A stretch of DNA of 64,000 nucleotides from a virus: the IMG/VR virus record IMGVR_UViG_3300005617_000581. One strand, given 5' to 3'. Made by a program: the position numbers and the translations under genes. Shown one piece after another: positions 13,801 to 33,148 of this stretch. The notes below the pieces were generated by a model that worked only from the letters and a program-made list of their open reading frames with translations, ran no database searches and had not been told where the DNA came from. The number at the start of each line of letters is the position of its first letter. The first letter of the stretch is position 1.

Positions 13801-14164
13801 TCTCTTCTCCCTCTCCTCGTAGATCGGCGTACAGGTCGCCGCCGCCGTCGGTGAACGGGGCCGTTCGCCAGTGGTAGTCGACCTCGACGAGGTACGCCAG
13901 CGCGAACGCCACCGAGTCGTCGCGGTATCTGTTCGATACGTTCATTGCGGCGACGGCCGTCGGGTCCCGGTCCGCGATCTGCTCGACGAGTTCGTCGAAC
14001 TGCGGCGAGTTCGGGGATACCCGCGCGTCGTGCACGGCCTGACGGCGCGCCCGCTCGAGCGCGTCGTCGACGTAGGCGCGCGCTCTGCGAAACTTGCCCA
14101 GCGACCGAAGCATGTCGCGGTACAGGTGCCGCGCGTTGACCAGGGGGCCGATGTTGTTTACCAA
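13790..14164 (-). CDS. Hypothetical protein (start is either TTG at 14164 preceded by a start-associated sequence, or upstream ATG at 14242)
   Basis: ORF track gives 13790..14242. An in-frame TTG at 14164 is immediately preceded on the minus strand by GAGAGGAGACGAGAAC, matching the conserved start motif of this genome. Confidence 0.4.
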   Translation of the reverse strand: MVNNIGPLVNARHLYRDMLRSLGKFRRARAYVDDALERARRQAVHDARVSPNSPQFDELVEQIADRDPTAVAAMNVSNRYRDDSVAFALAYLVEVDYHWRTAPFTDGGGDLYADLRGEGEESGS

Positions 14165-14330
14165 GTTCTCGTCTCCTCTCAACTCGGAACCTCGGGGGAC
14201 CGGGCCGCGGGCTAGCCGGTCCGGGCCCCGGAGGTCCGTCACGCCAAGCAGCCTGGGGATTCAAACCCCCGACCACCCGACGCCTAGTAATTGTACCGTA
14301 ACACAATCGTATGATCGTGTAAAACCGGGA

Positions 14331-14417
14331 CTAGTGGCGGCGTCGACCCAGCGCGTAGACGAGCATCGCGAGCCCGGTTACGACCAGTAGGACGCCGACG
14401 ACGAACAGTCCGTTCAC
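14331..14417 (-). CDS. Possible 28-aa membrane peptide
   Basis: GTG-initiated hydrophobic ORF (VNGLFVVGVLLVVTGLAMLVYALGRRRH) lying 4 nt after the upstream stop. Below the ORF-track size cut-off. Confidence 0.2.
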   Translation of the reverse strand: MNGLFVVGVLLVVTGLAMLVYALGRRRH

Positions 14418-14420
14418 GGC

Positions 14421-14894
14421 TTAGACCACCGCCCGGTTGACGTACGCGTCCCGGATGTCCGCGTCGAACTGGGACGCGACGGCCAGGGCGCGCGCGTGCT
14501 GCGGCGGCATGAACGTCTCGCCCGGCCGGTCCCCACCTGGGGGACGCCGAACGGTCAGGAACTCGACGACCTCGTACGCCGATTGGGTCTCGAGGACCTT
14601 CTCGAGCGTTACCTCGCCGGGCGCGCGCGACCGGCCGACCCGGACGACGACGTAGTCGTCGCGACTCGGCTCCACGTGGTGACGCCGGTAGATCGCCAGT
14701 TCGATCCAGCGGCACGCCGAGCACGTCGTGCCGCGCGGTACGACGCCGTCGGCGTCGTGCGGCCTCGCGTTGTGTCCTATCTTTTGACTGGAGGCGACGG
14801 CGAGGACGCGGCCGTCGAACTCGTAGCTTCGACCGTCGGCCGTGAACGTGATCCGGTGCAGTTCGCCGACGGCGAACCTAGGCATGGTAGTCAA
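14421..14894 (-). CDS. Hypothetical protein (first gene of leftward operon)
   Basis: 157-aa ORF whose start abuts the divergent control region. Confidence 0.45.
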   Translation of the reverse strand: MTTMPRFAVGELHRITFTADGRSYEFDGRVLAVASSQKIGHNARPHDADGVVPRGTTCSACRWIELAIYRRHHVEPSRDDYVVVRVGRSRAPGEVTLEKVLETQSAYEVVEFLTVRRPPGGDRPGETFMPPQHARALAVASQFDADIRDAYVNRAVV

Positions 14895-15071
14895 GTCAAT
14901 TCTCCTCTCATCTCCTTGTTGGTCTTCGGTTTCGGGTCGGTCCCCGCGGATAAAATCAGCATATGTTTTAGCCCCGAAACGCGCCCCCGGGATCGTCTCT
15001 GGCGAGTTCGATCCCGGGGGCGACGCGGTCCCTGGGGAGGACCGTGGAGCCCCGAAGGAGGCGCCCAGCTG
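14895..15071. promoter_or_regulatory. Divergent intergenic control region between leftward and rightward operons, carrying a 13-bp inverted repeat and an AT-rich near-palindrome
   Basis: CGCCCCCGGGATC at 14982-14994 pairs with GATCCCGGGGGCG at 15010-15022 across a 15-nt spacer. TAAAATCAGCATATGTTTTA lies at 14951-14970. The RBS GAAGGAGG precedes GTG at 15072. Confidence 0.4.
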
Positions 15072-17522
15072 GTGACTACACTACCACAAGCCCCGCTAGA
15101 ACCCCGCGACCAGGGGGAACGTATACTCGCGGCCGCGCGGGAGCACGCCGCGGCCGGAGTTCGGATCTTTCCGGTCCACGGACTGCGGCGCGTCGTTGCG
15201 CCCGAAACCGGGGGACTCGACGTCCGCACGGAGCTACGGTGCGGCTGCGGCGACGCCGCGTGCCCCAACCCCGGTAAGCACCCCGTCGGGCTGCTCGTCC
15301 CGAACGGGCACAACGGCGCGACGACCGAGCCGGGCACGATCGACCGGTGGTTTAGGCTGCCGTCGGCCCGCGACGCCAACGGCTGGATCCCGTACAACAT
15401 CGGCGTCGCGACCGGGCGCGGACTGGTCGTCGTCGACGCCGACGTCAAGCAGGCGCGACCCGACCTGCCGACGGGACTGGACGTACTGGACGACTGGGAG
15501 ACGTGGACCCAGGGGACGACGCTTCCCGACACGCTGACGATCCGCACCGGCGGCGGCGGCCGCCACCTGTGGCTGCGCGTCGATCGGAACGTCCGCGTCG
15601 CGGCGCGCAACCGGGTACTGCCCGGGATCGACCTGAAGGGCGACGGCGGCTACGTCCTGGCGACGCCGTCGCTGCACGTTTCGGGCCGCTACTACGAGGT
15701 AGCGCGCGACCTGGAGGCCGCCGAGGCGTCCGTCGAGCTGGTCGCGTGGCTGCTAACGGTCCGCGGCGGCCGCTACGTCACCAAGCGCGCGGGCGACGCC
15801 GCGGGCGTCGTCCCGGACGAGTACGACTTTAGGGCGATCGTCGGCGGCGTCCGCGGCTGCGCGGCCGGGCATCGGGACTACTTCGTCAACGACCTGTGCT
15901 TCAGGCTGCGGCGCGCCGGCTCGACGGTCGAGGAGGCCGCCCGGGCCCTCAGGCGCGAGTGGCTGCGCATGGAGCAGCCCGCGGGCGACGAGTTTCCGTG
16001 GGAGTCCTGCCTGTACAAGCTGCGCCGCGTCTGGGACGAGGTCACGCCGCAGGAGGTCGTCGACATACCGGCGTGGCGACCGCCGTCGGCCGCGTCGGCG
16101 ACGTCCGGCGCCGTCGAGCCCGAGGACGACGACGGACTCGGCGGGCTGTCGGCCGCCGAGGCGCTGGTCCGGCCGGAGCTGACGTTCCTGCTGACGGACA
16201 CCGGCAACGGGATCCGGTTCGCCCAGCGGATGCGCGAGGTCGTCCGCTACTGCCCGGGCGAAAATAGGTGGTACACCTGGGACGGACTCCGGTGGCGGCT
16301 GGACGCCAAGCGCGAGTCCTTCCTCCTAACGGAGGAGGTCGTCAAGGACCTGTACGTCGAGGCCTCGCGGCTGCCCGAGCACGAGCGCGACCGGGTCGAG
16401 CGCTGGGCGATCACCAGCCAGTCCGTCGCCCGCCGCGAGGCGATGCTGTCCGCCGCGGGGGCGCAGCCCGGGATCGCGATCGAACCGGACGACATGGATC
16501 GGGACCCGTGGCTGCTGGTCGTCCGCAACGGGACGCTGGACCTGCGGACCGGCGCGCTGCGCGCGTCGGACCCGCGGGACCTATGCACGCGGCTCGCCGA
16601 GGTCGACTTCGACGCCGGGTCGCGGGCGCCGCTGTGGCTGAAGCACGTCGAGTTCGTCACCGACGGCGACGACGTGCTCGCCGAGTGGCTGCGCAGGGCC
16701 GTCGGCTACACGCTGACGGGACTGACGGACGAGCAGAAGCTGTTCTTCCTGTGGGGCAACGGCGCCAACGGCAAGTCCACGTTCGTCGACGTCGTCGCCT
16801 CGATGCTCGGCTCGTACGCCGCGCAGGCGGACGCGGGACTGCTGGTCGGCGAGCGCGAGCACCCGACGCAGCTCGCCGGGCTGCGCGGGGCGCGGCTCGT
16901 CGTCGCGGACGAGACCGAGGCCGGGCGCAGGCTCGCCGAGCGCCGGATCAAGGCCCTGACCGGCGGCAAGAAGGTCCGGGCGCGCTACATGCGCCAGGAC
17001 TACTTCGAGTTCACGCCCCGCTTTAAGATCTGGATCACGGGCAACCACAAGCCGGAGGTCGCCGGTACGGACGGCGGGATCTGGCGCCGCCTCAAGCTCG
17101 TCCCGTTCCGCGCGACGCTGGACGACGACCGCCGGATCCTAGGATACGACGAGGTGCTCCACCAGGAGCTGCCGGGCATACTGAACTGGGCCTTAGACGG
17201 ACTCGCCGCCTGGCGGACGATCGGCGGACTCGGCGAGCCCGAGGTCGTCGGCGAGGCGACGCGCGAGTACCGGTCGGAGGAGGACACGATCGGGCTGTGG
17301 CTGTCGGAGCGCGCGGACCTGGGGGTACGGGACGCCGCCGCGGCGAACGCGCAGCTGTACGAGTCCTACCGCTGGTGGTGCCACGCCAACGGGATCCAGG
17401 ACGTCCGGTCGAACGTCGCGCTCGGCCGGGAGCTCGCCGCGCGCGGACTCAGGCGGGAGATCGTCAAGCTGGACGGCAAGACCACCCGCGTCTGGTACGG
17501 CGTCGCGCTGCGCGAGCAGTAG
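15072..17522 (+). CDS. Bifunctional DNA primase-polymerase / D5-type helicase (prim-pol N-terminus, P4-type primase C-terminal NTPase)
   Basis: The N-terminus GVRIFPVHG...HPVGLLVPNGH is prim-pol-like. The C-terminus has Walker A GNGANGKSTF and Walker B LVVADE. Start is placed at in-frame GTG 15072 with the GAAGGAGG RBS. The ORF track opens at 14496, but that stretch overlaps the divergent minus-strand gene. Confidence 0.8.
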   Translation: MTTLPQAPLEPRDQGERILAAAREHAAAGVRIFPVHGLRRVVAPETGGLDVRTELRCGCGDAACPNPGKHPVGLLVPNGHNGATTEPGTIDRWFRLPSARDANGWIPYNIGVATGRGLVVVDADVKQARPDLPTGLDVLDDWETWTQGTTLPDTLTIRTGGGGRHLWLRVDRNVRVAARNRVLPGIDLKGDGGYVLATPSLHVSGRYYEVARDLEAAEASVELVAWLLTVRGGRYVTKRAGDAAGVVPDEYDFRAIVGGVRGCAAGHRDYFVNDLCFRLRRAGSTVEEAARALRREWLRMEQPAGDEFPWESCLYKLRRVWDEVTPQEVVDIPAWRPPSAASATSGAVEPEDDDGLGGLSAAEALVRPELTFLLTDTGNGIRFAQRMREVVRYCPGENRWYTWDGLRWRLDAKRESFLLTEEVVKDLYVEASRLPEHERDRVERWAITSQSVARREAMLSAAGAQPGIAIEPDDMDRDPWLLVVRNGTLDLRTGALRASDPRDLCTRLAEVDFDAGSRAPLWLKHVEFVTDGDDVLAEWLRRAVGYTLTGLTDEQKLFFLWGNGANGKSTFVDVVASMLGSYAAQADAGLLVGEREHPTQLAGLRGARLVVADETEAGRRLAERRIKALTGGKKVRARYMRQDYFEFTPRFKIWITGNHKPEVAGTDGGIWRRLKLVPFRATLDDDRRILGYDEVLHQELPGILNWALDGLAAWRTIGGLGEPEVVGEATREYRSEEDTIGLWLSERADLGVRDAAAANAQLYESYRWWCHANGIQDVRSNVALGRELAARGLRREIVKLDGKTTRVWYGVALREQ

Positions 17523-17657
17523 GGACTCGGCGGGGACCGAGGTAGGGGACTCGTGTAGATGTTGGTAGATACGTTGTGCGCGGGTTCGCGGGTTGAGAAA
17601 TCGAGGTTGGTGCGCGCGAGAGCGTAACGGGAGGCCCGCGGGCGTAACCTGAATGTG

Positions 17658-17696
17658 AGTGAGAGGTGGGTTGCGGTTACGGACGGGTTACGGACG
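17658..17696. repeat. Iteron-like direct repeats GGGTTGCGG-[GTTACGGACG]x2-GGGTTGCGG
   Basis: Read directly. The tandem GTTACGGACG units are flanked by two GGGTTGCGG copies. Further CGTAACGG/GTTACGG copies occur at about 17619, 17643, 17797 and 17925. Confidence 0.5.
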
Positions 17697-17744
17697 AGGG
17701 TTGCGGGAGTGAGGGGCGTGATAAATCATGTGAGTGAGCGCGCT

Positions 17745-17935
17745 GAGCTGGTATCAGGTAGTAGTAGATCTAGTATTAGTGAATAAAAAAGTTACGGATA
17801 ACAGATTTAAAGCCCGCAACGAGTATAGTGCGCGCGACTACTGGAGATAGTTGACTACGCTCGATAGGATCACGACGAGCTGGGGAAACGAAAATCACTA
17901 TAGAGCAATGCACGAGTAATGTGTACCCGTAACGG
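17745..17935. promoter_or_regulatory. AT-rich non-coding core (candidate replication origin / early promoter region) downstream of primase gene
   Basis: The approx 450-bp gap 17523-17970 has no credible ORF. GC drops sharply (GTAGTAGTAGATCTAGTATTAGTGAATAAAAAAG). It is adjacent to the iteron-like repeats. Confidence 0.35.
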
Positions 17936-17970
17936 GATCGGGGGGACTCGGGCGGAAGGAATCGAGGAAC

Positions 17971-18714
17971 GTGGCAGGTAATCGACGTCGAATCTGGGGC
18001 TGGGAACCCGGGATGTCGACCGAGGAGCTCGCCGAGATCGAACGGTCGATCCGGGACGCGCAGGAGTTCATTCGGACGGGGAGGTACCTGCGGGTCGAGG
18101 TAGACAGGGACCCCAACGGGGAGGTAGTAGGCTGGGAACTACCTACGGGAAGGGGACCGGACACGCCGCCGTGCGGCGAGTTCCTGCGGTCGGATCCGAC
18201 GCGGACGTGCACGCGGTTCGCCGGGGCGGGGACGCAGCACCCGGGGGTAGGTCCCTGCGCGTGGCACGCACGAGGACTCGGACGAGGAACGGGAGCGTGG
18301 ATAGTGGCACACGCGTTCGCGCGGGCGCTCGACGTCAGTCCCTGGGAGGGGCTGCTGACGGCGGTCAAGATCGCCGCTGGGCGCGTGGCGTTCATCGAGG
18401 CGAAGCTGGGTGAGGCATCGTGCGACGATGACCTGCTTCCGTCCGGGTACCTATGGCACTGGGTCATACAGGCGGAGAAGTGGCACGAGCGCCTCGCCAA
18501 GGTGTCGAAGCTCGCGATCGACGCGGGCGTCGCCGAGCGCCTGGTTAGGCAGCTGGAACTCGAGGCGCAGCTGATGCTGCGCGCGACGTCGATCACGCTG
18601 GACGAACTGGGACTCGACGACGACACGAGGAGGCGAGCGCTGGGTATTATGAGTCGCACGCTCCTCGCCTTGGAAGCGGAGGAGTCCGGCGTAGTAAGGG
18701 AAGACGAGGAGTGA
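17971..18714 (+). CDS. Hypothetical protein (alternative ATG start at 18013)
   Basis: 247-aa ORF that is the first gene of the rightward small-gene block. Confidence 0.5.
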   Translation: MAGNRRRIWGWEPGMSTEELAEIERSIRDAQEFIRTGRYLRVEVDRDPNGEVVGWELPTGRGPDTPPCGEFLRSDPTRTCTRFAGAGTQHPGVGPCAWHARGLGRGTGAWIVAHAFARALDVSPWEGLLTAVKIAAGRVAFIEAKLGEASCDDDLLPSGYLWHWVIQAEKWHERLAKVSKLAIDAGVAERLVRQLELEAQLMLRATSITLDELGLDDDTRRRALGIMSRTLLALEAEESGVVREDEE

Positions 18715-18887
18715 CGACTCACGTGGAGCTCGTTGAGGACCTATCCGTTGACGAGGTCGTCGAGATCTTAAACGCCGCGTACGACCGCTACGACTACCCG
18801 CAGCTCGACAGGTACGTCATCGAGATGCTGATCAACCTCGCCGAGCGGGACGGCGTCAGGTTCTACCGAAAGTGGAGTGACAGGTGA
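18711..18887 (+). CDS. Hypothetical small protein (58 aa)
   Basis: GTG start overlapping the upstream stop (GTGA). Acidic protein. Confidence 0.35.
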   Translation: MTTHVELVEDLSVDEVVEILNAAYDRYDYPQLDRYVIEMLINLAERDGVRFYRKWSDR

Positions 18888-18981
18888 GTAACCGCGTTAA
18901 GATCAGGCCGCAACACCCACTGGCGGTTCCGTCCGTCGGGCGTAAGCGTCGGCGCAGGCATAAGGCGAGGAAGATCGTAAG

Positions 18982-19101
18982 ATGAACCTAGTCTGGCTGG
19001 CCGTGGCGTTCGTCATCGGCGTATCGATGGGAGCGATCATAACGATGGCGCTCGTCGCGGCGTCGATCCGTAGGCAGTTCCGGAACCACTTTTGGTCATA
19101 G
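18982..19101 (+). CDS. Possible 39-aa membrane peptide
   Basis: ATG ORF MNLVWLAVAFVIGVSMGAIITMALVAASIRRQFRNHFWS, which is one transmembrane helix. Confidence 0.3.
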   Translation: MNLVWLAVAFVIGVSMGAIITMALVAASIRRQFRNHFWS

Positions 19102-19113
19102 GGGAGGAACCTG

Positions 19114-19437
19114 ATGATCCAAGTCTTTCGCTACGAGGTTCCCGTCGACGAGGCGTGGCACGCGTACGATCTTAACGGCCCCGTGCTGCACGTCGGCTGC
19201 CGTAAGGTCGACGTCGTCGAATTTTGGGCGGAGGTCCACGGCGGCGTCCTGCCGGTCGTGCGCCGCCTGCGCGTCTACGGCACCGGCCAGCCGGTACCCA
19301 GCGGCGCGGCCTACCGCGGCACCGCGCTGACGCCGCCGTTTCTCAGCGGCAGCGCCGCACACGGCATTCAGGTCGCGTACGGCACCCTGGTCTGGCACCT
19401 CTACGAGCACCCGCTCGACACGGTGTCGGAGTCCTGA
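19114..19437 (+). CDS. Hypothetical protein
   Basis: 107-aa ORF with RBS GGGGAGGAA upstream. Confidence 0.5.
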   Translation: MIQVFRYEVPVDEAWHAYDLNGPVLHVGCRKVDVVEFWAEVHGGVLPVVRRLRVYGTGQPVPSGAAYRGTALTPPFLSGSAAHGIQVAYGTLVWHLYEHPLDTVSES

Positions 19438-19486
19438 GCTATCGTGATCGACGCGAAATATTTCGCCGAGGAGAGGAGAACGAGAC

Positions 19487-19948
19487 GTGAACCAGGAAAG
19501 AATTCGCCTGTGGGTCGAGGCCCTGCGCTCCGGTAGCTACAGGCAGGCCCGCCACAAGCTCAAGGTAGCCCTGCGCGACTCGGACGGAAATTTGACCGAG
19601 GACGTCGGCTACTGCTGCCTCGGCGTCATGTGTGAGGTGGCGATCGCGAACGGCCTGAACCTGGCCACCGAGGAGGAACCCGGCGACGCCGAGCCGTACT
19701 ACCGCTACGGCGTCCCGGGTCGGCCCGAGTCGTGGTCCGGAGGCTACCCGCCGAGCGTCGTCCTGGACTGGTACGGCATCGGCGGCACCGCTGACGGCGG
19801 CCCGATCTACGTCGGCAGCCACCCCGACGGGAAGCGCATCTACGCCGTCGAGGCGAACGACGACATCCGCTGGGACTTCAACAGGATCGCCGACGGCGTC
19901 GAGCGGATCTACCTGACCGATCCGACCGCCGAGGAGGTCGCGTCGTGA
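19487..19948 (+). CDS. Hypothetical protein, paralogue family member 1 (RYCCLGV family)
   Basis: Shares ER(I/V)xLWVxALRSGxY ... RYCCLGVxCEVA..NGL ... DWYG ... FxRIAD..ExIYL with three neighbouring genes. GTG start preceded by GAGAGGAGAACGAGAC. Confidence 0.6.
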   Translation: MNQERIRLWVEALRSGSYRQARHKLKVALRDSDGNLTEDVGYCCLGVMCEVAIANGLNLATEEEPGDAEPYYRYGVPGRPESWSGGYPPSVVLDWYGIGGTADGGPIYVGSHPDGKRIYAVEANDDIRWDFNRIADGVERIYLTDPTAEEVAS

Positions 19949-22919: not shown

Positions 22920-23281
22920 CTCGACAGCTACTGTTCTCGGTTACGCTCAAGGACTGCGAGGTGCAGCACTTTCGCTCCGGCGGCAAGGGTGGCCAGAACC
23001 AGAACAAGCGCGACACCGGCTGCCGGATCATTCACCACCCGTCGGGCGCGCGCGGTGAATCGCGCGAGGAGCGCTCGCAGCTGCAGAACAAGCGCGCCGC
23101 GTTTAGGCGCATGGCCGCGACGTCGCAGTTTAAGATCTGGATCGCGCGCCAGACGTTCGAGTACGACCAGCGCAGCCGGCTCGGCGATCCGACCAAGCGG
23201 TGGTCCGGCGAGCTGCGCGACGAGGACCTACTGATCGAGGTTCGGCGTCACGGTATCTGGCACAGTGTCGAAAACCTATGA
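22916..23281 (+). CDS. GGQ-motif release-factor-like protein (ArfB/YaeJ-type peptidyl-tRNA hydrolase domain)
   Basis: HFRSGGKGGQNQNKRDTGCRIIHHPSG matches the class-I release-factor GGQ catalytic loop (SGxGGQxVNKxxSAVRxxH). GTG start overlaps the upstream stop, with RBS AAGGAGG. Confidence 0.6.
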   Translation: MTRQLLFSVTLKDCEVQHFRSGGKGGQNQNKRDTGCRIIHHPSGARGESREERSQLQNKRAAFRRMAATSQFKIWIARQTFEYDQRSRLGDPTKRWSGELRDEDLLIEVRRHGIWHSVENL

Positions 23282-23325
23282 TAGGGTCTACCCGGCCTAG
23301 AAAACCACGAGAGGAGAACGAGAAG

Positions 23326-26709: not shown

Positions 26710-26774
26710 TCGATTTGACACGGGTGATAGTGTCGACCACGTCATAGTTTTAGGTAAGAGATCGAGAGGAGATC

Positions 26775-27647
26775 GTGATGTTCATTAGTATTTTGATCTT
26801 ATTGTTGGTCGTGGCCGGACTGGTCGCCATCCTCAAGGGCAGCGTCGGCACGGGACAGGACGAGTTTTCGATCCGCTGGATCGGCGGGGTGCTGCTCGGC
26901 ATCGCGTTCGTCGTGTTCCTGCTCGCGACCATCGTGATCGTTCCGACTAAAAACGTCGGCGTCGTGACGGCGTTCGGCCGTCCGACGGGCACGCTTCACA
27001 ACGGCATTCACGTCGTCTGGCCGTGGGAATCGGTTACCGACTACGACGCGACGATCCAGACGTTGTCGACGTCTGACATGCACGTGCGAATGGTCAACGG
27101 CACCGCTACCGCGAACGTCAACGTGACACTTAACTGGCGCCTGGAAGGTGACATTCAGCAGATTCACGTCGACTGGCGCGAGTTTAGCCGCATCCAGACA
27201 TACGTCATTCAACCTCGACTGCAGGACGCGCTGAACAAGGAGTTCATCGACTTCGACCCACTCGTCGCGCTGAAGCAGACTGGCGGTAAGCCGATCTCGA
27301 TGGTGACCATGGAGCAGCGCGTCGCCGAGCGTCTGCAGCACAGCCTGCCCGCCGGTATCTTCGTCGATCACCTGCAGCTGCCGCTGGTCGTCTACCCCGC
27401 GGTCGTCCAGGACGCGCTGAACGCCTACCAGAAGGAACTGGCTAACACGCAGGTCGCGCTGCAGCAGAAGATCACGGCGCAGGCTCAGAAGGACGCGCTG
27501 GATATCTTGTCGCAGGTCCGGATGTCGCCGGAGGCGTTCCTGCAGCAGTGCCTGATCATGACCGAACGCCTGGCGCAGCAGGGTAAGATTATCTCGCAGA
27601 CCTGGTCGTGTGTGTCTGGTTCGGCCGGTACTGTAGCGATTAAGTAG
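26775..27647 (+). CDS. SPFH/band-7 (prohibitin/HflK-like) membrane protein
   Basis: N-terminal TM helix, then a TKNVGVVTAFGRP...HVRMVNGTATANVNVTLNWRL SPFH core and a coiled-coil tail. Lower GC than surrounding genes. Confidence 0.55.
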   Translation: MMFISILILLLVVAGLVAILKGSVGTGQDEFSIRWIGGVLLGIAFVVFLLATIVIVPTKNVGVVTAFGRPTGTLHNGIHVVWPWESVTDYDATIQTLSTSDMHVRMVNGTATANVNVTLNWRLEGDIQQIHVDWREFSRIQTYVIQPRLQDALNKEFIDFDPLVALKQTGGKPISMVTMEQRVAERLQHSLPAGIFVDHLQLPLVVYPAVVQDALNAYQKELANTQVALQQKITAQAQKDALDILSQVRMSPEAFLQQCLIMTERLAQQGKIISQTWSCVSGSAGTVAIK

Positions 27648-27672
27648 GAGGTTAAGGAAGGGACCGAGGTCC

Positions 27673-27861
27673 GTGCCGTCATTCGAACCCGGCACGGGCC
27701 TCCCCTCGTTTGACACGCCTGCTACATTAATCACTATGAGTGCTGTTGCCCAAACCACGATGGACTGGACGTCCGCGACCGTCGTCGCGATCGGCGTCGT
27801 CTTCCTGATCGCGTACCCGATCCTGTCGGCGTTCGGTCGTAGGAAGCCGCCGCGTCGGTAG
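27673..27861 (+). CDS. Hypothetical small membrane protein
   Basis: The C-terminal half is a TM helix (VVAIGVVFLIAYPIL). Start uncertain (27673 or ATG 27736). Confidence 0.35.
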   Translation: MPSFEPGTGLPSFDTPATLITMSAVAQTTMDWTSATVVAIGVVFLIAYPILSAFGRRKPPRR

Positions 27862-27873
27862 TATGATCGCTTC

Positions 27874-29355
27874 GTGCAGCCCAAGACGCGCGCGCAGCTG
27901 TTCGCCGAGCTCGCGGATCCCCCGCAGCTGAAGTGGCGGAGCGATCCGCGCGCGTGGGTGGTTGACCGCGCGCGCGTCGAGGTCTGGTCCCGGCAGCGCG
28001 AGATCCTCGAGGCGGTGCGTGACCACGAGAAGGTCGCGATCCCGTCCTGCCACTCCGCGGGTAAGAGCTTTACGATGGGCCTCCTGACGTGCTGGTGGAT
28101 CGACTGCCACCCCGTCGGCGAGGCCCGCGTCGTCTCGACGGCGCCGACGTCGAAGCAGGTCGACGCCGTCCTGTGGAACGAGATCAACCAGCACCACGCG
28201 CGGATCGGCCTCGGCGGGCGCACGAACAAGAACGAGTGGTACTTCGGTAGGTTCCTCGCGGGCCTGGGTCGCAAGCCACCCGACCACGTACAGGCGGCGT
28301 TTCAGGGTCTCCACGCCCTGTACCTGCTGGTCATCTTCGACGAGGCCTACGGCATTCCGAAGCACCTGTGGGACGAGGGCTCGTCGCTCGCGTCGAACCG
28401 CAACGCGCGGATGGTCGCCGTCGGCAACCCCGACGGACCCGGGGAGTTCGCCGAGATCTGCAAGCCGGGTAGCGGCTGGTACGTCATGCCGATCTCGTAC
28501 CGGGACACGCCGAACTTTACCGGCGAGGACGTCTCCGACCGGCTCAAGGACATGCTCATCGCGCCGACGTGGGTCGAGGACCGGCGTCGCAAGTGGGGCG
28601 AGAACTCGGCCCTGTTCCAGTCGAAGTGCGAGGGACGATTCCCAGCCGAGGGTTCGCCGTGGGACGTCATTCCACACGCCTGGGCCGCCGCGTGCCGCTA
28701 CCTCGACCTGCCGGTCGAGGGCGAACGCGAGGCTGGGATCGACATCGGCGCGGGAAACGACCGTACGGTGATAACGATCCGCCAGGGATCGGTGGTTCTC
28801 GACGTTAGGTGGTTCGTCAGCCCCGACCCGGTGCGGACCGTCGGCGACCTGGCGCTTCACATCCGTGACTGGAAGGTAAAGCGCGCGAAGGTCGACTCGA
28901 TCGGCGTCGGCTGGGGCGTCTACGGCGCGCTCAGCGAGGCCGTTCCGGACGTCGAGATCATTCCGATCAACGTCTCGATGCAGCCGTCGTCGGCCGACGC
29001 GCAGGAGAAGTACCTCAACAAGCGCGCCGAGATGTGGTGGGACGTCGGCCGCGAGCTGATCCGCGCGCGTCAGCTCGACCTGTCGCGGCTGCCCGAGGAC
29101 GTCCAGGACGACGTTATTCACGAGCTGTCGTGCCCGCGCTACGAGATCCTCGACTCGCGGGGTAAGATCAAGATCGAGCCGAAGGAGCGGATCATCGAGC
29201 GCCTCGGCGTCTCGCCGGACCTCGCGGAGTCGCTGCTGCTCGCGTTCGTCCCCGCCAACTGGACGGCCGAGCTGCAGGCGTCGGGTATGCTGGCGATGCC
29301 GTCGCTGCTGGAGGGCCTGCGGCCGTCGGACCTGACGGGCCGACGTAGCTGGTAG
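27874..29355 (+). CDS. Terminase large subunit
   Basis: Walker A is IPSCHSAGKSF. The N-terminal ATPase and C-terminal nuclease-like domain (VGNPDGPGEF...DIGAGNDRTVITI) fit TerL. GTG start lies 9 nt after a TAGTAT -10-like element. Confidence 0.8.
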   Translation: MQPKTRAQLFAELADPPQLKWRSDPRAWVVDRARVEVWSRQREILEAVRDHEKVAIPSCHSAGKSFTMGLLTCWWIDCHPVGEARVVSTAPTSKQVDAVLWNEINQHHARIGLGGRTNKNEWYFGRFLAGLGRKPPDHVQAAFQGLHALYLLVIFDEAYGIPKHLWDEGSSLASNRNARMVAVGNPDGPGEFAEICKPGSGWYVMPISYRDTPNFTGEDVSDRLKDMLIAPTWVEDRRRKWGENSALFQSKCEGRFPAEGSPWDVIPHAWAAACRYLDLPVEGEREAGIDIGAGNDRTVITIRQGSVVLDVRWFVSPDPVRTVGDLALHIRDWKVKRAKVDSIGVGWGVYGALSEAVPDVEIIPINVSMQPSSADAQEKYLNKRAEMWWDVGRELIRARQLDLSRLPEDVQDDVIHELSCPRYEILDSRGKIKIEPKERIIERLGVSPDLAESLLLAFVPANWTAELQASGMLAMPSLLEGLRPSDLTGRRSW

Positions 29356-29368
29356 CCGATCATCATAA

Positions 29369-29432
29369 ATAATTAGCCGAACGTCCGCGGTAATTATTCA
29401 CGACACAGTGCTGTGGTGTGATATAATATAGA
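29369..29432 (+). promoter_or_regulatory. Candidate promoter with extended -10 (TGaTATAAT) and operator-like inverted repeats
   Basis: TGATATAAT lies at 29419-29427. Inverted repeat AATAATTA...TAATTATT lies at 29369-29399 and palindrome CACAGTGCTGTG at about 29403-29414. It sits 45 nt upstream of the 29472 gene. Confidence 0.45.
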
Positions 29433-29471
29433 TAGGCGGGCGAACAGCTCGCCGACCGAGAGGAGAATGAG

Positions 29472-29792
29472 ATGAAGGTCGGAGACGTCCTAACCTGGGA
29501 TTACCAGAGCGACGTATTCCAAGGTCAGTACCAATTGGTCGAAGACCTGGGCCGAGGCACGTGGCGCGCCGAGCACCTAGAGCCGAACGACGAGCTGATC
29601 GAATCTGCTCGCGCATACTACCTGGAGTCCGAGCATCCCTACCTGGACTGGATCGATCCGTTCGGTCCGGAGCGGCGACGCGCTACCCGCCAAGAGTCCT
29701 TCGATGCAGAGATCCTGGATCGGATTGAGCGCGCGGGCCAGACATTCGAGGTCCAATTCGTTTCGGCTGAGCGTTACGCCGCAGCTTTTTAA
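29472..29792 (+). CDS. Hypothetical protein (start-associated-sequence gene)
   Basis: 106 aa, preceded by CCGAGAGGAGAATGAG-ATG. Confidence 0.5.
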   Translation: MKVGDVLTWDYQSDVFQGQYQLVEDLGRGTWRAEHLEPNDELIESARAYYLESEHPYLDWIDPFGPERRRATRQESFDAEILDRIERAGQTFEVQFVSAERYAAAF

Positions 29793-29880
29793 GATTGACC
29801 TAAGAGCGAAACGCCGGGAGGCGTCCGACGGTAGGGCCGTCGCTGAGGATGCTCTCAGAACACAAGAGAAGGAGAACGAG

Positions 29881-30195
29881 ATGTACCAGGGAACGCGCTA
29901 CTACATCCAGCGCCCGACCGGCTACATGAAGGAAGGCGAACCCGAGTGGGTCGACATGGAGTTCGAGCCTGGCAAGATCTGGCGCTCCGGCCGGTTCACC
30001 AGCGCCGCGGACCAGGTCAACCAGATGCGCGACGCGGGCGACCAGCGTCCCCTCCGGATCGTGCACCGCACCTTCCGCGAGGACGTCTGCGGCACCTACG
30101 ACCCGGGCCAGCTGGTCCAGCTCTGGAACGCCGACGCGGACCTCGAGATCAACGATGAATCGTTGAAGTTCGAGGCGCCCGAGGACGAGATTTAA
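29881..30195 (+). CDS. Hypothetical protein (start-associated-sequence gene)
   Basis: In-frame ATG 29881 preceded by AGAGAAGGAGAACGAG. Confidence 0.5.
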   Translation: MYQGTRYYIQRPTGYMKEGEPEWVDMEFEPGKIWRSGRFTSAADQVNQMRDAGDQRPLRIVHRTFREDVCGTYDPGQLVQLWNADADLEINDESLKFEAPEDEI

Positions 30196-30277
30196 AGAGA
30201 TCGAAACCTGATCGCCGGGAGGCAGAGCAGGTCCACCCGTTAGGCGGGTGCCGATGAGATCGAGAGGGAGAAACGAG

Positions 30278-30718
30278 ATGGAACGGTGCAAGATCGATGA
30301 TCTGGTCGTGCTCAACGAGCTGTACGCCACACCGGCGACGCGGGGCGTCGTCTACCGCGTGGTCGAGGTCCGCAAGGTCAACGTCGTCGGCGAGCCCCTC
30401 GGCGGTGGACGTCGACTGGCGGCCAAGCCCTACCAATTCGACCCAGCGCCCGAGGACGCGGCGAAGGTCGCGGTTGGGATTCCCTACGTGCCGCCGCTCT
30501 GGTCCGGCGAGGTCGTGACGATTGCAGGTCCGGGCTGGAAGCAGCCGAGCGACGTGCTTTGGGTCGTCATCAAGGACAACGCGGACCGTAAGGTCCGGGT
30601 CGCCCGCCTCGGCGGCGACGACGGTCGCTACTGGACGGTTCCGCGGGGCATGTTGACGGTCGTCGACAAGAAGCTGCTCCTCGAGGCGGTACTCACCATG
30701 GAAACTTCATCGAAGTAG
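30278..30718 (+). CDS. Hypothetical protein (start-associated-sequence gene)
   Basis: ATG 30278 preceded by CGAGAGGGAGAAACGAG. 146 aa. Confidence 0.5.
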   Translation: MERCKIDDLVVLNELYATPATRGVVYRVVEVRKVNVVGEPLGGGRRLAAKPYQFDPAPEDAAKVAVGIPYVPPLWSGEVVTIAGPGWKQPSDVLWVVIKDNADRKVRVARLGGDDGRYWTVPRGMLTVVDKKLLLEAVLTMETSSK

Positions 30719-30761
30719 ATCATACGAATCCGTAATTCGTGTGATACAATTTAAGAAGGTA

Positions 30762-30842
30762 GGGACCGAAGCTCACGGTGAGCGCAAGCAGCTGCGGCAA
30801 CTGGCAGCTAAGCAGGTTCGGGTTCGACTCCCGACGGTTCCA
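30762..30842 (+). tRNA. tRNA-like element (acceptor stem plus canonical T-arm; anticodon arm non-canonical)
   Basis: 5' GGGACCG pairs with 3' CGGTTCC (7 bp, one G-U). The T-arm is TCGGG-TTCGACT-CCCGA, and D-stem GCTC/GAGC is present. The central hairpin AGCTGC-GGCAACTG-GCAGCT has an 8-nt loop, so the anticodon is not assignable. The element lies in a 400-bp ORF-free region. Confidence 0.4.
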
Positions 30843-31115
30843 CGACCAGCTGCCCAGAAGGGGTGCGATGGGAATCCGGTTTTTAGGCCGGTAGCAACAG
30901 CGGCAGCCAAGAGAGCCCCTTCACAAAGCTCTGCCCGCCGTGTTGGCCCGAGCGGTATGGGGTTGGTTGGGGCAATCGGGCCTCCTAAAAAGTCCGCGTT
31001 GAGGTAACTCCGCGGCACATCTCCAAATCCTGTAAGCGGGTTCGCCGCGCGTTTGGCGCGCGCAGGTTCACGGCCTACGAACTCACGCCTCAATCAACCC
31101 AAAAGGAGGTTCCGC

Positions 31116-31844
31116 ATGGAACACAGGACAGAAGCCGCAAAACTCCGCTCGGAGTGGGCGCACAACGCGTCGGAAGTTATGATCGGCGTGGTGCGGGCGA
31201 TCACCAAGCGCTCAAAGTTGATCACGGGCCTCGCGCTCGGTGCGTCGACCCCACACCAGATCGTCTACCTGCTCGCCCTGTGCGTCCCGCACATGCACCT
31301 GAGTACTTCAGTTGACACCGTTCAACTGGTCCAGAACTACCTGGAAGCCCTGGGGATGATCATCATAGCCCTGGCGGTTCCGATCTGCACCGACATCACG
31401 ATCTACAGCTGCGTCGACACTCTCGGCGCGATGGCTGCGACCAAGACGTCAAAGATTCGTGCGTTCATCTTTCTTCTTATTCCACTCGGCGCGAGTGGTT
31501 TTGTAAACTTCCTCGCGCCGGCGCCGATGATCCTCAAGGGGCTCGCGGCGTTCCTGGTAGTACTCGTTATGATCTCCCAGGGACTTAAGTTCGTCGACAC
31601 GGACTGGGATAAGCTCGAGGAATTTGAGGCACAGAACACGATCGTCGAGGATGCGCCGTCGCGACCGGGACGCCGACCGGTTACGGCCCGTGAGCGTCGG
31701 GCGCGTGAGAGGGATCTCTACGCCGCGATGACCAAGACCGAGCAGTACAAGTGGCGCCTGAAGTGGGACGCCGACGAGCAAAAGCGACTGGCAAAGCTGC
31801 AGACCCAGCTCCCAGCGGTGCCCGAGACGGCTACCGTCGGATGA
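31116..31844 (+). CDS. Integral membrane protein (DUF2637-like) with basic/coiled C-terminal tail
   Basis: In-frame ATG 31116 after AAAAGGAGG. Four hydrophobic helices, then a KR-rich coiled tail. Confidence 0.5.
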   Translation: MEHRTEAAKLRSEWAHNASEVMIGVVRAITKRSKLITGLALGASTPHQIVYLLALCVPHMHLSTSVDTVQLVQNYLEALGMIIIALAVPICTDITIYSCVDTLGAMAATKTSKIRAFIFLLIPLGASGFVNFLAPAPMILKGLAAFLVVLVMISQGLKFVDTDWDKLEEFEAQNTIVEDAPSRPGRRPVTARERRARERDLYAAMTKTEQYKWRLKWDADEQKRLAKLQTQLPAVPETATVG

Positions 31845-31932
31845 GGTACACGAGGACCGCGAAATCTTCGCGGTCCTCGGCTACTTTGGCCGACAAAGTG
31901 ATATTATGAACAGGAAACGAGAGGAGAACGAG

Positions 31933-32982
31933 ATGAAGCTCAATAAGACACGCCGCTCGACGGCGACCCTGCTCGGGGTCGCGTTCGGGGACGCGATGGG
32001 ACGCAACACGGAGTTCGTCTACTCCGTCAAGGAGATCGTGCGCCGCAACCTGGTCGTGTACGACCTGCCGCGCCCGGCCCTGGTCACCGACGATACCGAC
32101 ATGACGCGCTACGTCTGTCGCGCGCTGTTGGCTGTCGACGACGTCGCTAACCTCGAACACGCGTTCGTCGAGCAGTTCATCGACTGGTACGACCAGATGG
32201 ACTCGGGCCGCAAGCCCGGCTCGTCGTGCATCCGCGCGGTGCGCAGCCTGATCGCGGACTCGAAGCACGACTGGCTGAGCAACACGGACCCGTTCGCCAA
32301 GGGATGCGGCGCCAACATGCGCGTCGCGCCGGTGGCGCTCGACACGCGCCTGGTGCCCGACTTCGAGGCCGTCGCGAACGTCGCGCAGCTCCAGTCGGCG
32401 ATCACGCACGCGCACCCGACCGCCCTGGCGGCCGCCGAACTGACGGCGTACGCGATCTGGCTGCTGCGCTGGGAGAACTTCGCGCTCGACGCGCGGCTCA
32501 TCGAGGCGCTGCTCGAACGGTGCGACTCGCAGCGCGGCGTCTACCGCGAGGACGTGCTCGGCGACCTGGCTAAGTATTGGTCCGACCGCAAGGCGATGGC
32601 TGGCTACGGTCGGCGCTGGAAGCCGGTCAACGCTAAGCGCGCGATGCAGCTCGGCTGGGACGAGGTGCTCGGCTCGATCCTCGACGTGTACGACGCGTAT
32701 ACGCTCGAGGACGTCGGCGACGACGTCTGTTCCTACACGGGAGGTGGCTGGATCGCCGAGGAGGCGCTAGCCGGTGCGCTGCTGGCGGCACTGTGGCACC
32801 CCGAAAATCCGGTCCGCGCACTGATGCGCGCCGCGACGACGTCGGGTGACTCGGATTCGCTGGCCAGCATCGCAGGCGCGCTTCACGGCGCGTGCTACGG
32901 GTACGACGCGTGGCCTCACGACTGGTACGCCCGCATCGAATTCGGCGACGAGCTCGCCGAATACGGCGAGCGCTGGGACTAG
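31933..32982 (+). CDS. ADP-ribosylglycohydrolase family protein (ARH/DraG-like)
   Basis: GVAFGDAMG, TEF and VTDDTDMT are the ARH-family Mg-binding signature. Preceded by ACGAGAGGAGAACGAG-ATG. Confidence 0.6.
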   Translation: MKLNKTRRSTATLLGVAFGDAMGRNTEFVYSVKEIVRRNLVVYDLPRPALVTDDTDMTRYVCRALLAVDDVANLEHAFVEQFIDWYDQMDSGRKPGSSCIRAVRSLIADSKHDWLSNTDPFAKGCGANMRVAPVALDTRLVPDFEAVANVAQLQSAITHAHPTALAAAELTAYAIWLLRWENFALDARLIEALLERCDSQRGVYREDVLGDLAKYWSDRKAMAGYGRRWKPVNAKRAMQLGWDEVLGSILDVYDAYTLEDVGDDVCSYTGGGWIAEEALAGALLAALWHPENPVRALMRAATTSGDSDSLASIAGALHGACYGYDAWPHDWYARIEFGDELAEYGERWD

Positions 32983-32986
32983 AAGG

Positions 32987-33148
32987 GTGGACGTCGCGGA
33001 ACTGCTGGACCGAATCGGCCGCTGCGAAGCGTGCGGCCGGTTCGTCGTCGAGGACGAACTAATCGAACTGCTAACCCTGTTGGTCTGTGAAGACTGCCGC
33101 GATGAACTTAAGAGAGAAGGAGAACGAGATGACCAAGATTCACGATGA
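32987..33148 (+). CDS. Possible small zinc-ribbon protein
   Basis: A GTG-initiated 53-aa ORF with CEACG...CEDC. It overlaps the start of the next gene by 20 nt. Confidence 0.25.
   Translation: MDVAELLDRIGRCEACGRFVVEDELIELLTLLVCEDCRDELKREGERDDQDSR

What the first reader, a model, noticed from the sequence alone, without database searches (positions are those of the whole stretch)
14156..33131. Conserved 15-16-nt start-associated sequence GAGAGGAGAACGAGA immediately upstream of at least 8 start codons
Near-identical extended Shine-Dalgarno blocks precede a subset of genes on both arms:
- 19471-19486, GAGAGGAGAACGAGAC-GTG;
- 23308-23325, CGAGAGGAGAACGAGAAG-ATG;
- 29456-29471, CCGAGAGGAGAATGAG-ATG;
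- 29865-29880, AGAGAAGGAGAACGAG-ATG;
- 30261-30277, CGAGAGGGAGAAACGAG-ATG;
- 31917-31932, ACGAGAGGAGAACGAG-ATG;
- 33111-33128, AGAGAGAAGGAGAACGAG-ATG;
- minus strand 14165-14180, GAGAGGAGACGAGAAC-TTG.

This parallels the start-associated sequences of Cluster K mycobacteriophages (Pope et al. 2011) but with a different consensus. It implies a shared translational control for a regulon of mostly uncharacterised genes.
Basis: seen in the sequence. Interest (0 to 1): 0.7.

Follow-up and report, generated by a model that had tools for sequence, protein, structure and literature searches.

The report
Phage start-associated ribosome-binding motif
A purine-only sequence containing the ribosome-binding site is repeated almost letter for letter in front of ten early genes of an uncultured phage; it marks genes that start translation on their own after a promoter, a hairpin or a self-cleaving hammerhead ribozyme, resembles motifs already described in mycobacteriophages, and has no tested role.

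Summary
All eight listed sites sit where stated, and two more exist (26764-26777 plus strand, 13802-13815 minus strand). The consensus GAGAGGAGAACGAG occurs 7 times at edit distance <=1, against 0.2 expected. Ten of the 11 sites at edit distance <=2 end 0-9 nt before a start codon.

The motif has two parts: an extended Shine-Dalgarno sequence (GAGAGGAG) and a conserved purine spacer (AACGAG). It marks a class of genes. All ten lie in the non-structural region, 7 of 10 use ATG, and 8 of 10 follow a non-coding gap of at least 44 nt. Their initiation regions are predicted to be unusually unpaired.

Upstream lie extended -10 promoters (4 sites), hairpins (2), the 3' end of an upstream ORF (2), or type II hammerhead ribozymes (2 sites, 48-51 bits with an independently built model).

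Related uncultured phages keep GGAGAWCGAR or a second variant (GTGAGGAGTGAGAAG) in front of mostly non-orthologous genes.

It behaves like the start-associated sequences of Cluster K mycobacteriophages but has a different consensus. I read it as a cis-acting, structure-free initiation cassette for uncoupled genes. A "regulon" under shared trans control is not shown. Verdict: new variant of a known kind, moderate interest.

The parts
19471..19486 (+). Motif copy GAGAGGAGAACGAGAC, then GTG 19487 (153-aa protein, unknown function). A palindromic hairpin GCGAAATATTTCGC lies at 19453-19466, just upstream.
23308..23325 (+). Motif copy CGAGAGGAGAACGAGAAG, then ATG 23326 (134 aa, unknown). An extended -10-like TGATAGGGT lies at 23279-23287, ending 39 nt before the start.
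26764..26777 (+). An extended -10-like TGATAGTGT lies at 26725-26733.
29456..29471 (+). Motif copy CCGAGAGGAGAATGAG, then ATG 29472 (106 aa). A promoter-like site ACGACA-16 nt-TATAAT with TG lies at 29400-29427.
29804..29854 (+). Type II hammerhead ribozyme 1: GAGC-GAAA-stem III-GUC-stem I-CUGAGGA(U)-GCUC. Predicted cleavage is after C29825. It has one extra U after A9. It ends 26 nt before ATG 29881.
   Evidence: Rfam Hammerhead_II, 19.3 bits, below threshold; 47.6 bits, E 5e-9 with model R1
29865..29880 (+). Motif copy AGAGAAGGAGAACGAG, then ATG 29881 (104 aa, unknown).
30199..30261 (+). Type II hammerhead ribozyme 2: GAUC-GAAA-long stem III-GUC-stem I-CCGAUGA-GAUC. Predicted cleavage is after C30233. 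The core has C at position 4.
   Evidence: (51.3 bits, E 6e-10)
30261..30277 (+). Motif copy CGAGAGGGAGAAACGAG, then ATG 30278 (146 aa, unknown).
31917..31932 (+). Motif copy ACGAGAGGAGAACGAG, then ATG 31933 (ADP-ribosylglycohydrolase). An extended -10-like TGATATTAT lies at 31899-31907, ending 26 nt before the start. A terminator-like hairpin lies at about 31852-31878.
33111..33128 (+). Motif copy AGAGAGAAGGAGAACGAG, then ATG 33129 (149 aa). It lies inside the 3' end of a probable 53-aa CxxC...CxxC ORF (32987-33148).
14165..14180 (-). Motif copy GAGAGGAGACGAGAAC, then TTG 14164. This is the first gene of the leftward arm. A GC-rich hairpin lies upstream in the divergent intergenic region.
13802..13815 (-). 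It overlaps the 3' end of the upstream gene 13790-14164.

Best explanation
The motif is a cis-acting, lineage-specific translation-initiation cassette. It consists of an extended Shine-Dalgarno block (GAGAGGAG, able to pair over 8 positions with a ...CCUCCUUUCU-3' 16S tail), a nearly pyrimidine-free spacer (AACGAG) and usually ATG. The phage uses it for genes that must recruit ribosomes de novo instead of by translational coupling. Such genes are the first cistron after an early promoter, after a hairpin, or after a hammerhead self-cleavage site that creates a new 5' end. Because the leader is almost all purine it cannot fold on itself, so the ribosome-binding site stays open in a 65% G+C transcript. 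The near-identity of the copies is best explained by descent and exchange of short leader cassettes within this phage clade, under selection for that property. A dedicated trans-acting regulator is not needed. Shown: positions, statistics, gene class, predicted accessibility, upstream elements, conservation in relatives. Inferred: the effect on translation, pairing with the rRNA of an unknown host, ribozyme cleavage in vivo, and the origin of the copies.
For: The motif ends 0-9 nt before start codons at 10 of 11 sites. All 10 motif genes lie in the non-structural region at 12.7-33.7 kb (p=2.6e-4). ATG is used by 7/10 motif genes against 19/64 others (p=0.03). The mean unpaired probability of positions -18..+3 is 0.59 against 0.40 (p=4e-5), and the purine fraction is 0.87 against 0.63. 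A gap of at least 40 nt occurs in 8/10 against 15/64 genes after correcting 33129 (p=9e-4). Most other genes overlap their neighbour by ATGA/GTGA and use GGAGG-type sites. Four of only 13 plus-strand TGNTANNNT matches in 64 kb end 26-45 nt before motif-bearing starts. Two motif sites lie 0 and 10 nt (their start codons 16 and 26 nt) after hammerheads that score 51 and 48 bits with a model built from unrelated phage contigs. In 129 such hammerheads from IMG/VR, 117 are followed by an ORF start at a median of 24 nt, with purine-rich leaders (0.73 against 0.64). Relatives have purine-only leaders at positionally equivalent small genes.
Against: Predicted SD:anti-SD energy of motif genes is not significantly stronger than that of other genes (-11.9 against -10.3 kcal/mol, p=0.19), so SD strength is not what sets them apart. 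Avoiding structure does not explain a conserved C in a fixed position or 5 exact copies of GGAGAACGAG. It also does not explain why the same 10-mer is kept in a relative in front of an orthologue with only 37% protein identity. Two discrete variants of the motif persist across genomes, which looks like sequence-specific constraint. The host, and therefore its 16S tail, is unknown (one search found no prophage relative). My gene calls are home-made. Nothing was measured experimentally.
Confidence: 0.55

Rival explanations
1. The motif is a translational operator. A phage- or host-encoded protein or RNA recognises the conserved bases outside the SD core and co-regulates the ten genes. This is the reader's 'regulon', in the manner proposed but never shown for Cluster K SAS, or of T4 RegA operators (the latter from my own knowledge).
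For: Several bases are conserved that cannot pair with the anti-SD: the C and the GAG of the spacer, and the 5' C of CGAGAGG. The motif is retained in front of non-orthologous genes and across relatives with 64-75% identity in the 493-aa protein encoded at 27874-29355 (which I take to be the large terminase, not checked). There are two discrete variants rather than a continuum. Pope et al. use the same argument for SAS.
Against: No candidate factor was identified. No complementary RNA segment of at least 9 nt occurs outside the minus-strand gene starts. The distance from the motif to the start codon varies from 0 to 3 nt, and indels occur inside the motif. More distant relatives keep only the purine richness. 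The class is fully explained by being uncoupled first cistrons.
Confidence: 0.2
2. The copies are passive products of cassette duplication and recombination. Short leader-plus-RBS segments are carried along when small accessory genes are exchanged, or serve as microhomology for such exchange. The sequence beyond AGGAG would then have no function of its own.
For: Motif genes are mostly small genes of unknown function, flanked by their own promoter, ribozyme or terminator. The three small genes after 29355 have no detectable homologues in relatives, yet the positionally equivalent genes there carry the motif. Motif boundaries are sharp.
Against: No homology extends into flanking DNA or coding sequence, so the duplications are not recent. 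At 37-75% protein identity, neutral 15-nt stretches should have decayed, yet GGAGAACGAG is exact in the L211 orthologue of gene 19487. Two copies are maintained inside the 3' ends of upstream ORFs.
Confidence: 0.15
3. It is a DNA-level element, such as an operator, part of a promoter or another protein-binding site, and not an mRNA element.
For: It lies in intergenic DNA near promoter-like sequences. The ESAS elements that accompany SAS in Cluster K are thought to bind DNA-binding proteins and to contain promoters.
Against: It is strictly strand-specific relative to the gene and locked 0-3 nt from the start codon. It lies downstream of the -10 elements and of the ribozymes, so it is inside the transcript. 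It is not palindromic. The candidate upstream palindrome CGACACNGTGTCG is not enriched (86 matches against 94 expected).
Confidence: 0.05
4. It is a chance resemblance among ordinary AGGAG ribosome-binding sites.
For: GAGAGG is the commonest SD flavour throughout the window, including late genes (about 13 of 19 occurrences precede starts).
Against: There are seven sites at edit distance <=1 against 0.2 expected, and five exact 10-mers against 0.09 expected, all in register with start codons.
Confidence: 0.02

Closest known systems
Start-associated sequences (SAS) of Cluster K mycobacteriophages (Pope et al. 2011, PMC3203893; survey of 188 genomes in PMC12699233)
   Same: A short asymmetric repeat with an AGGAG core and about 10-19 copies per genome. 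It lies a few bases upstream of start codons, in one orientation only, and only in the non-structural arm. It shows a strong ATG bias and precedes genes that follow unusually long intergenic gaps. Conserved bases extend beyond what can pair with 16S rRNA, and the repeat is kept in front of different gene families in related phages. Promoters lie upstream of a subset. Its function is still unknown.
   Different: The consensus differs (GAGAGGAGAACGAG, purine-only, against GGGATAGGAGCCC), with 0 matches to the SAS consensus. No 17-bp inverted-repeat ESAS was found. Two copies follow hammerhead ribozymes, which to my knowledge have not been reported next to SAS. The phage is uncultured and only distantly related to actinobacteriophages (portal about 27% identity).
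SAS-like 26-bp repeat of Citrobacter phage Mordin (PMC4611695)
   Same: It is another phage with its own repeat, containing GGAG, upstream of 8 hypothetical genes on one arm. This is a precedent for SAS-like motifs with other consensus sequences.
   Different: Unrelated sequence, a longer repeat, a Gram-negative host, and no analysis beyond a genome announcement.
Type II hammerhead ribozymes flanking genes in phages and prophages (Perreault et al. 2011, PMC3088659; Rfam RF02276)
   Same: The two elements at 29804-29854 and 30199-30261 have the permuted type II order: stem II 5' strand, GAAA, stem III hairpin, UC cleavage site, stem I hairpin, CUGANGA, stem II 3' strand. They lie in tandem around single small genes, as described for prophages. 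In haloviruses HF1/HF2 a hammerhead lies 13 nt before a start codon.
   Different: Both score below Rfam's gathering threshold. One has C instead of U at core position 4, and the other has an extra U after A9. I found no loop I/3'-tail pseudoknot by inspection.
Synthetic ribozyme insulators such as RiboJ placed before a standard RBS (my own knowledge, not checked here)
   Same: A self-cleaving hammerhead removes the upstream RNA context, so that a defined short leader with an exposed RBS starts the mRNA.
   Different: RiboJ is an engineered part derived from a type III satellite-RNA hammerhead. Here the arrangement is natural, and cleavage is only inferred.

Membership tests
Cluster K start-associated sequence (SAS) | Match to the 13-bp consensus GGGATAGGAGCCC with at most 2 deviations | tested here: not met
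   0 matches in the window on either strand
Cluster K start-associated sequence (SAS) | Many copies per genome, a few bases upstream of start codons, in one orientation relative to the gene | tested here: met
   10 copies; 10 of 11 sites at edit distance <=2 end 0-9 nt before a start
Cluster K start-associated sequence (SAS) | Restricted to the non-structural part of the genome | tested here: met
   10/10 motif genes against 25/64 others lie in 12.7-33.7 kb, p=2.6e-4; none lies from the portal gene (34080) onwards
Cluster K start-associated sequence (SAS) | ATG strongly preferred as the associated start codon | tested here: met
   7/10 against 19/64, p=0.028
Cluster K start-associated sequence (SAS) | Associated genes are separated from the upstream gene by about 50 bp or more | tested here: met
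   8/10 have at least 44 nt of non-coding DNA upstream against 15/64 others, p=9e-4; two copies overlap the end of an upstream ORF
Cluster K start-associated sequence (SAS) | AGGAG core plus conserved positions that cannot pair with 16S rRNA | tested here: met
   Predicted pairing covers GAGAGGAG only; AACGAG is conserved (5 exact GGAGAACGAG copies) and stays unpaired in the duplex. The host rRNA is assumed, not known.
Cluster K start-associated sequence (SAS) | About half of the copies have an upstream ESAS (17-bp imperfect inverted repeats containing a promoter) | tested here: inconclusive
   Four copies have an extended -10-like TGATAnnnT 26-45 nt upstream. A weak CGACACNGTGTCG-like block appears in the alignment but is not enriched.
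Type II hammerhead ribozyme | Conserved core CUGANGA ... GAAA and a UH cleavage site | tested here: inconclusive
   GAAA and GUC are present in both. The first element has CUGAGGA plus one inserted U. The second has CCGAUGA (U4 to C). The C4 form recurs in 5 of 13 hammerheads of this phage lineage.
Type II hammerhead ribozyme | Three helices around the core, with stems I and III capped by loops and stem II open | tested here: met
   Full-length matches to model R1 at 47.6 and 51.3 bits, E about 1e-9. R1 was built from 24 unrelated IMG/VR sequences.
Type II hammerhead ribozyme | Helices supported by compensatory changes | tested here: met
   13 lineage copies: 97.9% of cells paired against 71% in shuffles; 11 of 15 pairs have changes on both sides; the slid controls collapse. 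The alignment was fitted to the model, which favours the structure.
Type II hammerhead ribozyme | Self-cleavage activity | not testable with these tools
   Needs in vitro transcription of 29780-29900 and 30180-30300
Type II hammerhead ribozyme | Score at or above the Rfam gathering threshold (RF02276, 37 bits) | tested here: not met
   No hit at gathering thresholds. 19.3 bits for 29804-29860, and no hit listed at E<=10 for 30199-30261. The canonical copies in L009 were also missed at E<=1.
Ordinary Shine-Dalgarno site | Complementarity to the 3' end of 16S rRNA at 5-10 nt from the start codon | tested here: met
   GAGAGGAG pairs over 8 positions with CUCCUUUC (-12.8 kcal/mol), with 6-9 nt between GGAG and the start. 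An actinobacterial-type rRNA tail is assumed.

The most novel reading that the evidence does not exclude
The phage clade runs a two-layer expression system for its early accessory genes. Promoters or self-cleaving type II hammerheads (including a conserved C4 core variant) create defined 5' ends. A clade-specific purine leader then acts as a recognition sequence for a phage-encoded translation factor. The motif genes would thus form a true translational regulon, and the variants of the motif would co-evolve with that factor.
Probability: 0.12. Interest if true: 0.7.

Novelty: new variant of a known kind. Interest (0 to 1): 0.4.

Why it matters
SAS-type motifs have been known since 2011, but their role was still described as undefined in 2024-2025. 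This case shows the same syndrome in a distant, uncultured phage clade with a completely different consensus: repeat copies, ATG bias, early genes, and long upstream gaps. That argues the phenomenon is a general way for high-G+C phages to mark uncoupled genes, not a peculiarity of Cluster K. The link to hammerhead ribozymes gives a concrete, testable picture of what those ribozymes may be for in phages: making a fresh 5' end a fixed distance in front of a standard ribosome-binding site. That question is still listed as open. The practical value is modest, namely compact natural leader and insulator parts for high-G+C hosts.

Tried and rejected
- Near-identical phage genomes: none in INPHARED. 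The portal protein has only about 27% identity to Gordonia and Mycobacterium phages.
- Host assignment through prophage relatives in 185,579 genomes: no hit. A weak sub-threshold SsgA match for gene 33129 is only a hint of an actinomycete host.
- Rfam at gathering thresholds: nothing. At permissive thresholds, only a 19-bit Hammerhead_II match. I therefore built my own model.
- First alignment A1, mixing 50- and 52-nt hammerheads, misplaced the gaps in stem III and was dropped.
- Stronger SD as the explanation: rejected, because the energies are not significantly different.
- Phage-encoded antisense RNA to the motif: none. All complementary segments of 8-10 nt lie in the minus-strand arm (two mark minus-strand motif copies), opposite the primase ORF or inside genes, and none lies in a plus-strand non-coding region.
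- ESAS-like inverted repeat CGACACNGTGTCG upstream of the promoters: not enriched.
- Pseudoknot between hammerhead loop I and the motif, as described for many type II hammerheads: no convincing complementarity by inspection.
- Minus-strand ORF 14421-14894, which has a motif-like GAGAGGAGAA upstream: rejected as antisense to the primase ORF, whose N-terminus is conserved in L211.
- ARAGORN on the tRNA-like stretch at 30762-30842: negative.


Full report
**Observation.**
- The 15-mer GAGAGGAGAACGAGA has three exact copies. It has seven matches at <=3 mismatches, against 2.85 +/- 1.47 in dinucleotide-preserving shuffles.
- With indels allowed, GAGAGGAGAACGAG has 7 sites at edit distance <=1 (shuffles 0.2 +/- 0.54) and 11 at <=2 (3.3 +/- 1.9). 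Ten of the 11 end 0-9 nt before a start codon.
- GGAGAACGAG occurs five times on the plus strand and never on the minus strand, against 0.09 expected.
- Two further copies were not listed: 26764-26777 (GAGAGGAGATCGTG-ATG) and minus strand 13802-13815 (GAGAGGGAGAAGAG-A-GTG).

**What the window is.** It is a 65% G+C phage genome-like sequence.
- A leftward arm spans about 67-14164. A rightward arm starts with a primase/D5 helicase gene (14496-17522) and includes the portal gene (34080-35669) and a MuF-ADP-ribosyltransferase fusion gene.
- It has no close relative among deposited phages. The portal protein is about 27% identical to those of Gordonia and Mycobacterium phages.
- The same phage occurs in a Logan assembly and two IMG/VR contigs.
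- Relatives with 49-75% identity in the 493-aa protein encoded at 27874-29355 (which I take to be the large terminase; its family was not checked) and 56-65% identity in the portal protein occur in other IMG/VR contigs.
- No prophage relative was found in 185,579 genomes, so the host is unknown.

**Anatomy.** The motif has two halves.
- The 5' half, GAGAGGAG, can pair over eight positions (one G-U pair) with a ...CCUCCUUUCU-3' 16S tail, at -12.8 kcal/mol. GAGAGG is the phage's general SD flavour: about 13 of its 19 occurrences precede starts, including late genes.
- The 3' half, AACGAG (variants AATGAG, AAACGAG, ATCGTG, ACGAGAAC, AAGAGA), fills the 6-9 nt to the start codon and does not take part in the predicted pairing.
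- The whole element is 87% purine.

**Which genes carry it.** I made a home-made gene call based on codon usage, with two starts corrected by hand. On that basis the ten motif genes differ from the other 64 scored genes as follows.

| Feature | Motif genes | Other genes | p |
|---|---|---|---|
| In the non-structural region, 12.7-33.7 kb | 10/10 | 25/64 | 2.6e-4 |
| ATG start codon | 7/10 | 19/64 | 0.028 |
| At least 40 nt of non-coding DNA upstream | 8/10 | 15/64 | 9e-4 |
| Mean unpaired probability, -18..+3 | 0.59 | 0.40 | 4e-5 |
| Predicted SD:anti-SD energy (kcal/mol) | -11.9 | -10.3 | 0.19 |

The gap count treats 33129 as overlapped by a 53-aa CxxC ORF. SD strength does not separate the two classes. 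Most other genes overlap their neighbour (ATGA/GTGA) and use GGAGG-type sites. At least two genes look leaderless: TAGTAT lies 9 nt before GTG 27874 and 6 nt before GTG 33670. Only two motif genes have a recognisable function, an SPFH/Band-7 protein and an ADP-ribosylglycohydrolase.

**What lies upstream.**
- Four of only 13 plus-strand matches to TGNTANNNT in 64 kb end 26-45 nt before motif starts (23326, 26778, 29472, 31933). All have the form GTGATAnnnT. One also has a -35-like hexamer.
- Gene 19487 is preceded by a palindromic hairpin, and gene 14164 by a GC-rich hairpin in the divergent region.
- Genes 13800 and 33129 have the motif inside the 3' end of an upstream ORF.
- Genes 29881 and 30278 are preceded by sequences that read as type II hammerhead ribozymes.

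**Hammerheads.**
- The pattern GATCGAAAC-N25-55-CTGAYGAGATC was taken from the relative L009. It hit more than 120 IMG/VR contigs of every G+C content.
- Nearly all hits fold as stem III hairpin, GUC, stem I hairpin.
- A covariance model was built from 24 of these unrelated sequences. In that seed set 100% of cells are paired and 9 of 15 pairs covary. The seeds were pre-selected for the fold.
- The model finds 30199-30261 (51.3 bits, E 6e-10) and 29804-29854 (47.6 bits, E 5e-9) in the window, and 11 further copies in relatives.
- Across these 13 copies, 97.9% of cells pair, 11 of 15 pairs change on both sides, and stem II covaries (GAUC/GAUC, GGUC/GACC, GGCC/GGCC, GAGC/GCUC).
- Predicted cleavage is after C29825 and C30233.
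- Copy 2 has C at core position 4, a variant shared by 5 of the 13. Copy 1 has an extra U after A9, shared with L007 and L008.
- Rfam misses them at its thresholds.
- In the IMG/VR sample, 117 of 129 hammerheads are followed by an ORF start at a median of 24 nt (114 of them ATG, 94 with an SD). Their leaders are richer in purines than control SD-ATG contexts (0.73 against 0.64).
- Tandem hammerheads flanking single phage genes, and one 13 nt before a start codon, were reported in 2011 (PMC3088659). Their function is still described as unresolved (PMC6765202).

**Relatives.**
- The closest relative is contig IMGVR_UViG_3300005546_000004 (loci L009/L131/L211). It has GGAGAACGA[AG] four times and GGAGATCGAG twice in front of small genes.
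- One of these precedes the orthologue of gene 19487, which has only 37% protein identity but an exact GGAGAACGAGA-ATG.
- L134 has GGAGAACGAGAA-GTG, and GAGGAGAGACGAGAGAAC-GTG before the ADP-ribosylglycohydrolase orthologue.
- L133, L007, L004 and L134 share a second variant, GTGAGGAGTGAGAAG-ATG. More distant loci keep only purine-rich leaders.
- So the property (an SD inside a purine-only leader before uncoupled early genes) is clade-wide. The exact sequence is conserved within sub-clades and in front of non-orthologous genes.

**Mechanism.** The best-supported reading is a cis-acting initiation cassette for genes that cannot rely on translational coupling. A transcript 5' end is made by a promoter or by ribozyme cleavage, or the preceding RNA is closed off by a hairpin. 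A short leader follows that cannot fold because it lacks pyrimidines. It carries an SD at optimal spacing and usually ATG.
- For the two ribozyme-preceded genes, the 3' cleavage product would start with the stem I hairpin, followed by 11-37 single-stranded nucleotides that contain the motif (inference).
- This reading does not explain the conserved C, the exact 10-mer, or the two discrete variants of the motif. These points keep two rivals alive: a sequence-specific trans factor (a true translational regulon, about 0.2) and passive inheritance through cassette exchange (about 0.15).
- A DNA-level role is unlikely, because the motif is strand-specific, in register with the start codon, and lies downstream of the -10 elements and ribozymes. 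Chance is excluded.

**Comparison with what is known.**
- Measured against the criteria of Pope et al. 2011, the motif meets every positional and contextual feature of Cluster K SAS but not the consensus. An ESAS-like inverted repeat could not be shown. It works like an SAS but is not a member of that sequence family.
- A SAS-like repeat with yet another consensus has been noted in Citrobacter phage Mordin.
- In Cluster K the ESAS are now thought to contain promoters, which parallels the promoters found here.
- The hammerheads are new members of a known class.

**Verdict.** This is a real, statistically solid, SAS-like start-associated motif with a new consensus in an uncultured phage clade. 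It marks uncoupled early genes and is in two cases coupled to hammerhead ribozymes. It is a new variant of a known kind, of moderate interest (0.4).

**Limits.** The host is unknown, the gene calls are mine, the relatives are partial contigs, and nothing was tested experimentally.

Noticed in passing
window 29804-29854 and 30199-30261; L009 6876-6925 and 7231-7295; L007 343-393 and 858-922; L133 12707-12764 and 13450-13512; L134 9343-9400, 10090-10139 and 10754-10814; L132 13028-13089; L008 6-67: Type II hammerhead ribozymes lie in tandem around single small genes downstream of the 493-aa protein gene at 27874-29355 (probably the large terminase) in this phage clade. All are missed by Rfam thresholds but score 33-64 bits with a model built from unrelated phage contigs.
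   Followed up: yes
window 30245-30251; L133 13450-13512; L134 9343-9400 and 10754-10814; L007 858-922: Five of the 13 lineage hammerheads have CCGAYGA instead of CUGAYGA (U4 to C in the catalytic core), with covarying stems around it. This suggests a tolerated or functional natural core variant. Three others carry an extra U between A9 and stem II.
   Followed up: partly
loci L011-L130 (IMG/VR): The pattern GATCGAAAC-N25-55-CTGAYGAGATC hits more than 120 viral contigs of 26-66% G+C. In 117 of 129 cases an ORF start (114 ATG) follows at a median of 24 nt. Often the sequence AGAAAC comes directly after the ribozyme, and a stop codon lies just upstream. This looks like a very regular 'stop - hammerhead - leader - RBS - ATG' module.
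   Followed up: partly
window 30742-30750 and 30762-30842: A strong extended -10 (GTGATACAAT) is followed by an 81-nt tRNA-like sequence. It has an acceptor stem GGGACCG/CGGUUCC, a D-like arm, a T arm UCGGG-UUCGACU-CCCGA, and an aberrant long anticodon arm. ARAGORN and Rfam do not call it. Relatives carry real tRNA genes at the same place (26 in L134, 2 in L007, 1 in L132). About 270 nt more of non-coding sequence follow, up to gene 31116.
   Followed up: partly
window 27860-27876 and 33655-33672; also L132 and L133 (ATTAATGTGATAYGAT followed by 6-7 nt and ATG): Apparent leaderless genes: a -10 hexamer TAGTAT lies 9 nt before GTG 27874 (the 493-aa protein gene) and 6 nt before GTG 33670. Relatives have TGTGATAnGAT promoters 6-7 nt before ATG codons.
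   Followed up: no
window 32987-33148: A probable unannotated 53-aa ORF with two CxxC pairs (VDVAELLDRIGRCEACGRF...VCEDCRDELKREGERDDQDSR). It overlaps the motif and the first 20 nt of gene 33129. A T-to-G difference in L002/L003 is conservative (D to E) in this frame.
   Followed up: partly
window 17523-18012: A 490-nt non-coding region lies directly after the primase/helicase gene. It has tandem GGTTACGGACG x2, CGTAACGGGA x2, further GTTACGG/CCGTAAC copies in both orientations, ATGTGAGTGAG x2 and an A+T-rich stretch. It looks like a replication origin with iterons.
   Followed up: partly
window 31933-32982, 35671-37812 and 37809-41870: An ADP-ribosylglycohydrolase gene (with the motif) lies a few kb upstream of two virion-module genes that carry ADP-ribosyltransferase toxin domains (a MuF-ART fusion and a 1353-aa protein). 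This may be an enzyme/antidote pairing.
   Followed up: no
window 19416-19428, 23258-23270 and 29401-29413: A CGACACNGTGTCG-like palindrome lies upstream of three motif-associated promoters or leaders (0, 2 and 2 mismatches). It is not enriched genome-wide at the thresholds tested.
   Followed up: partly
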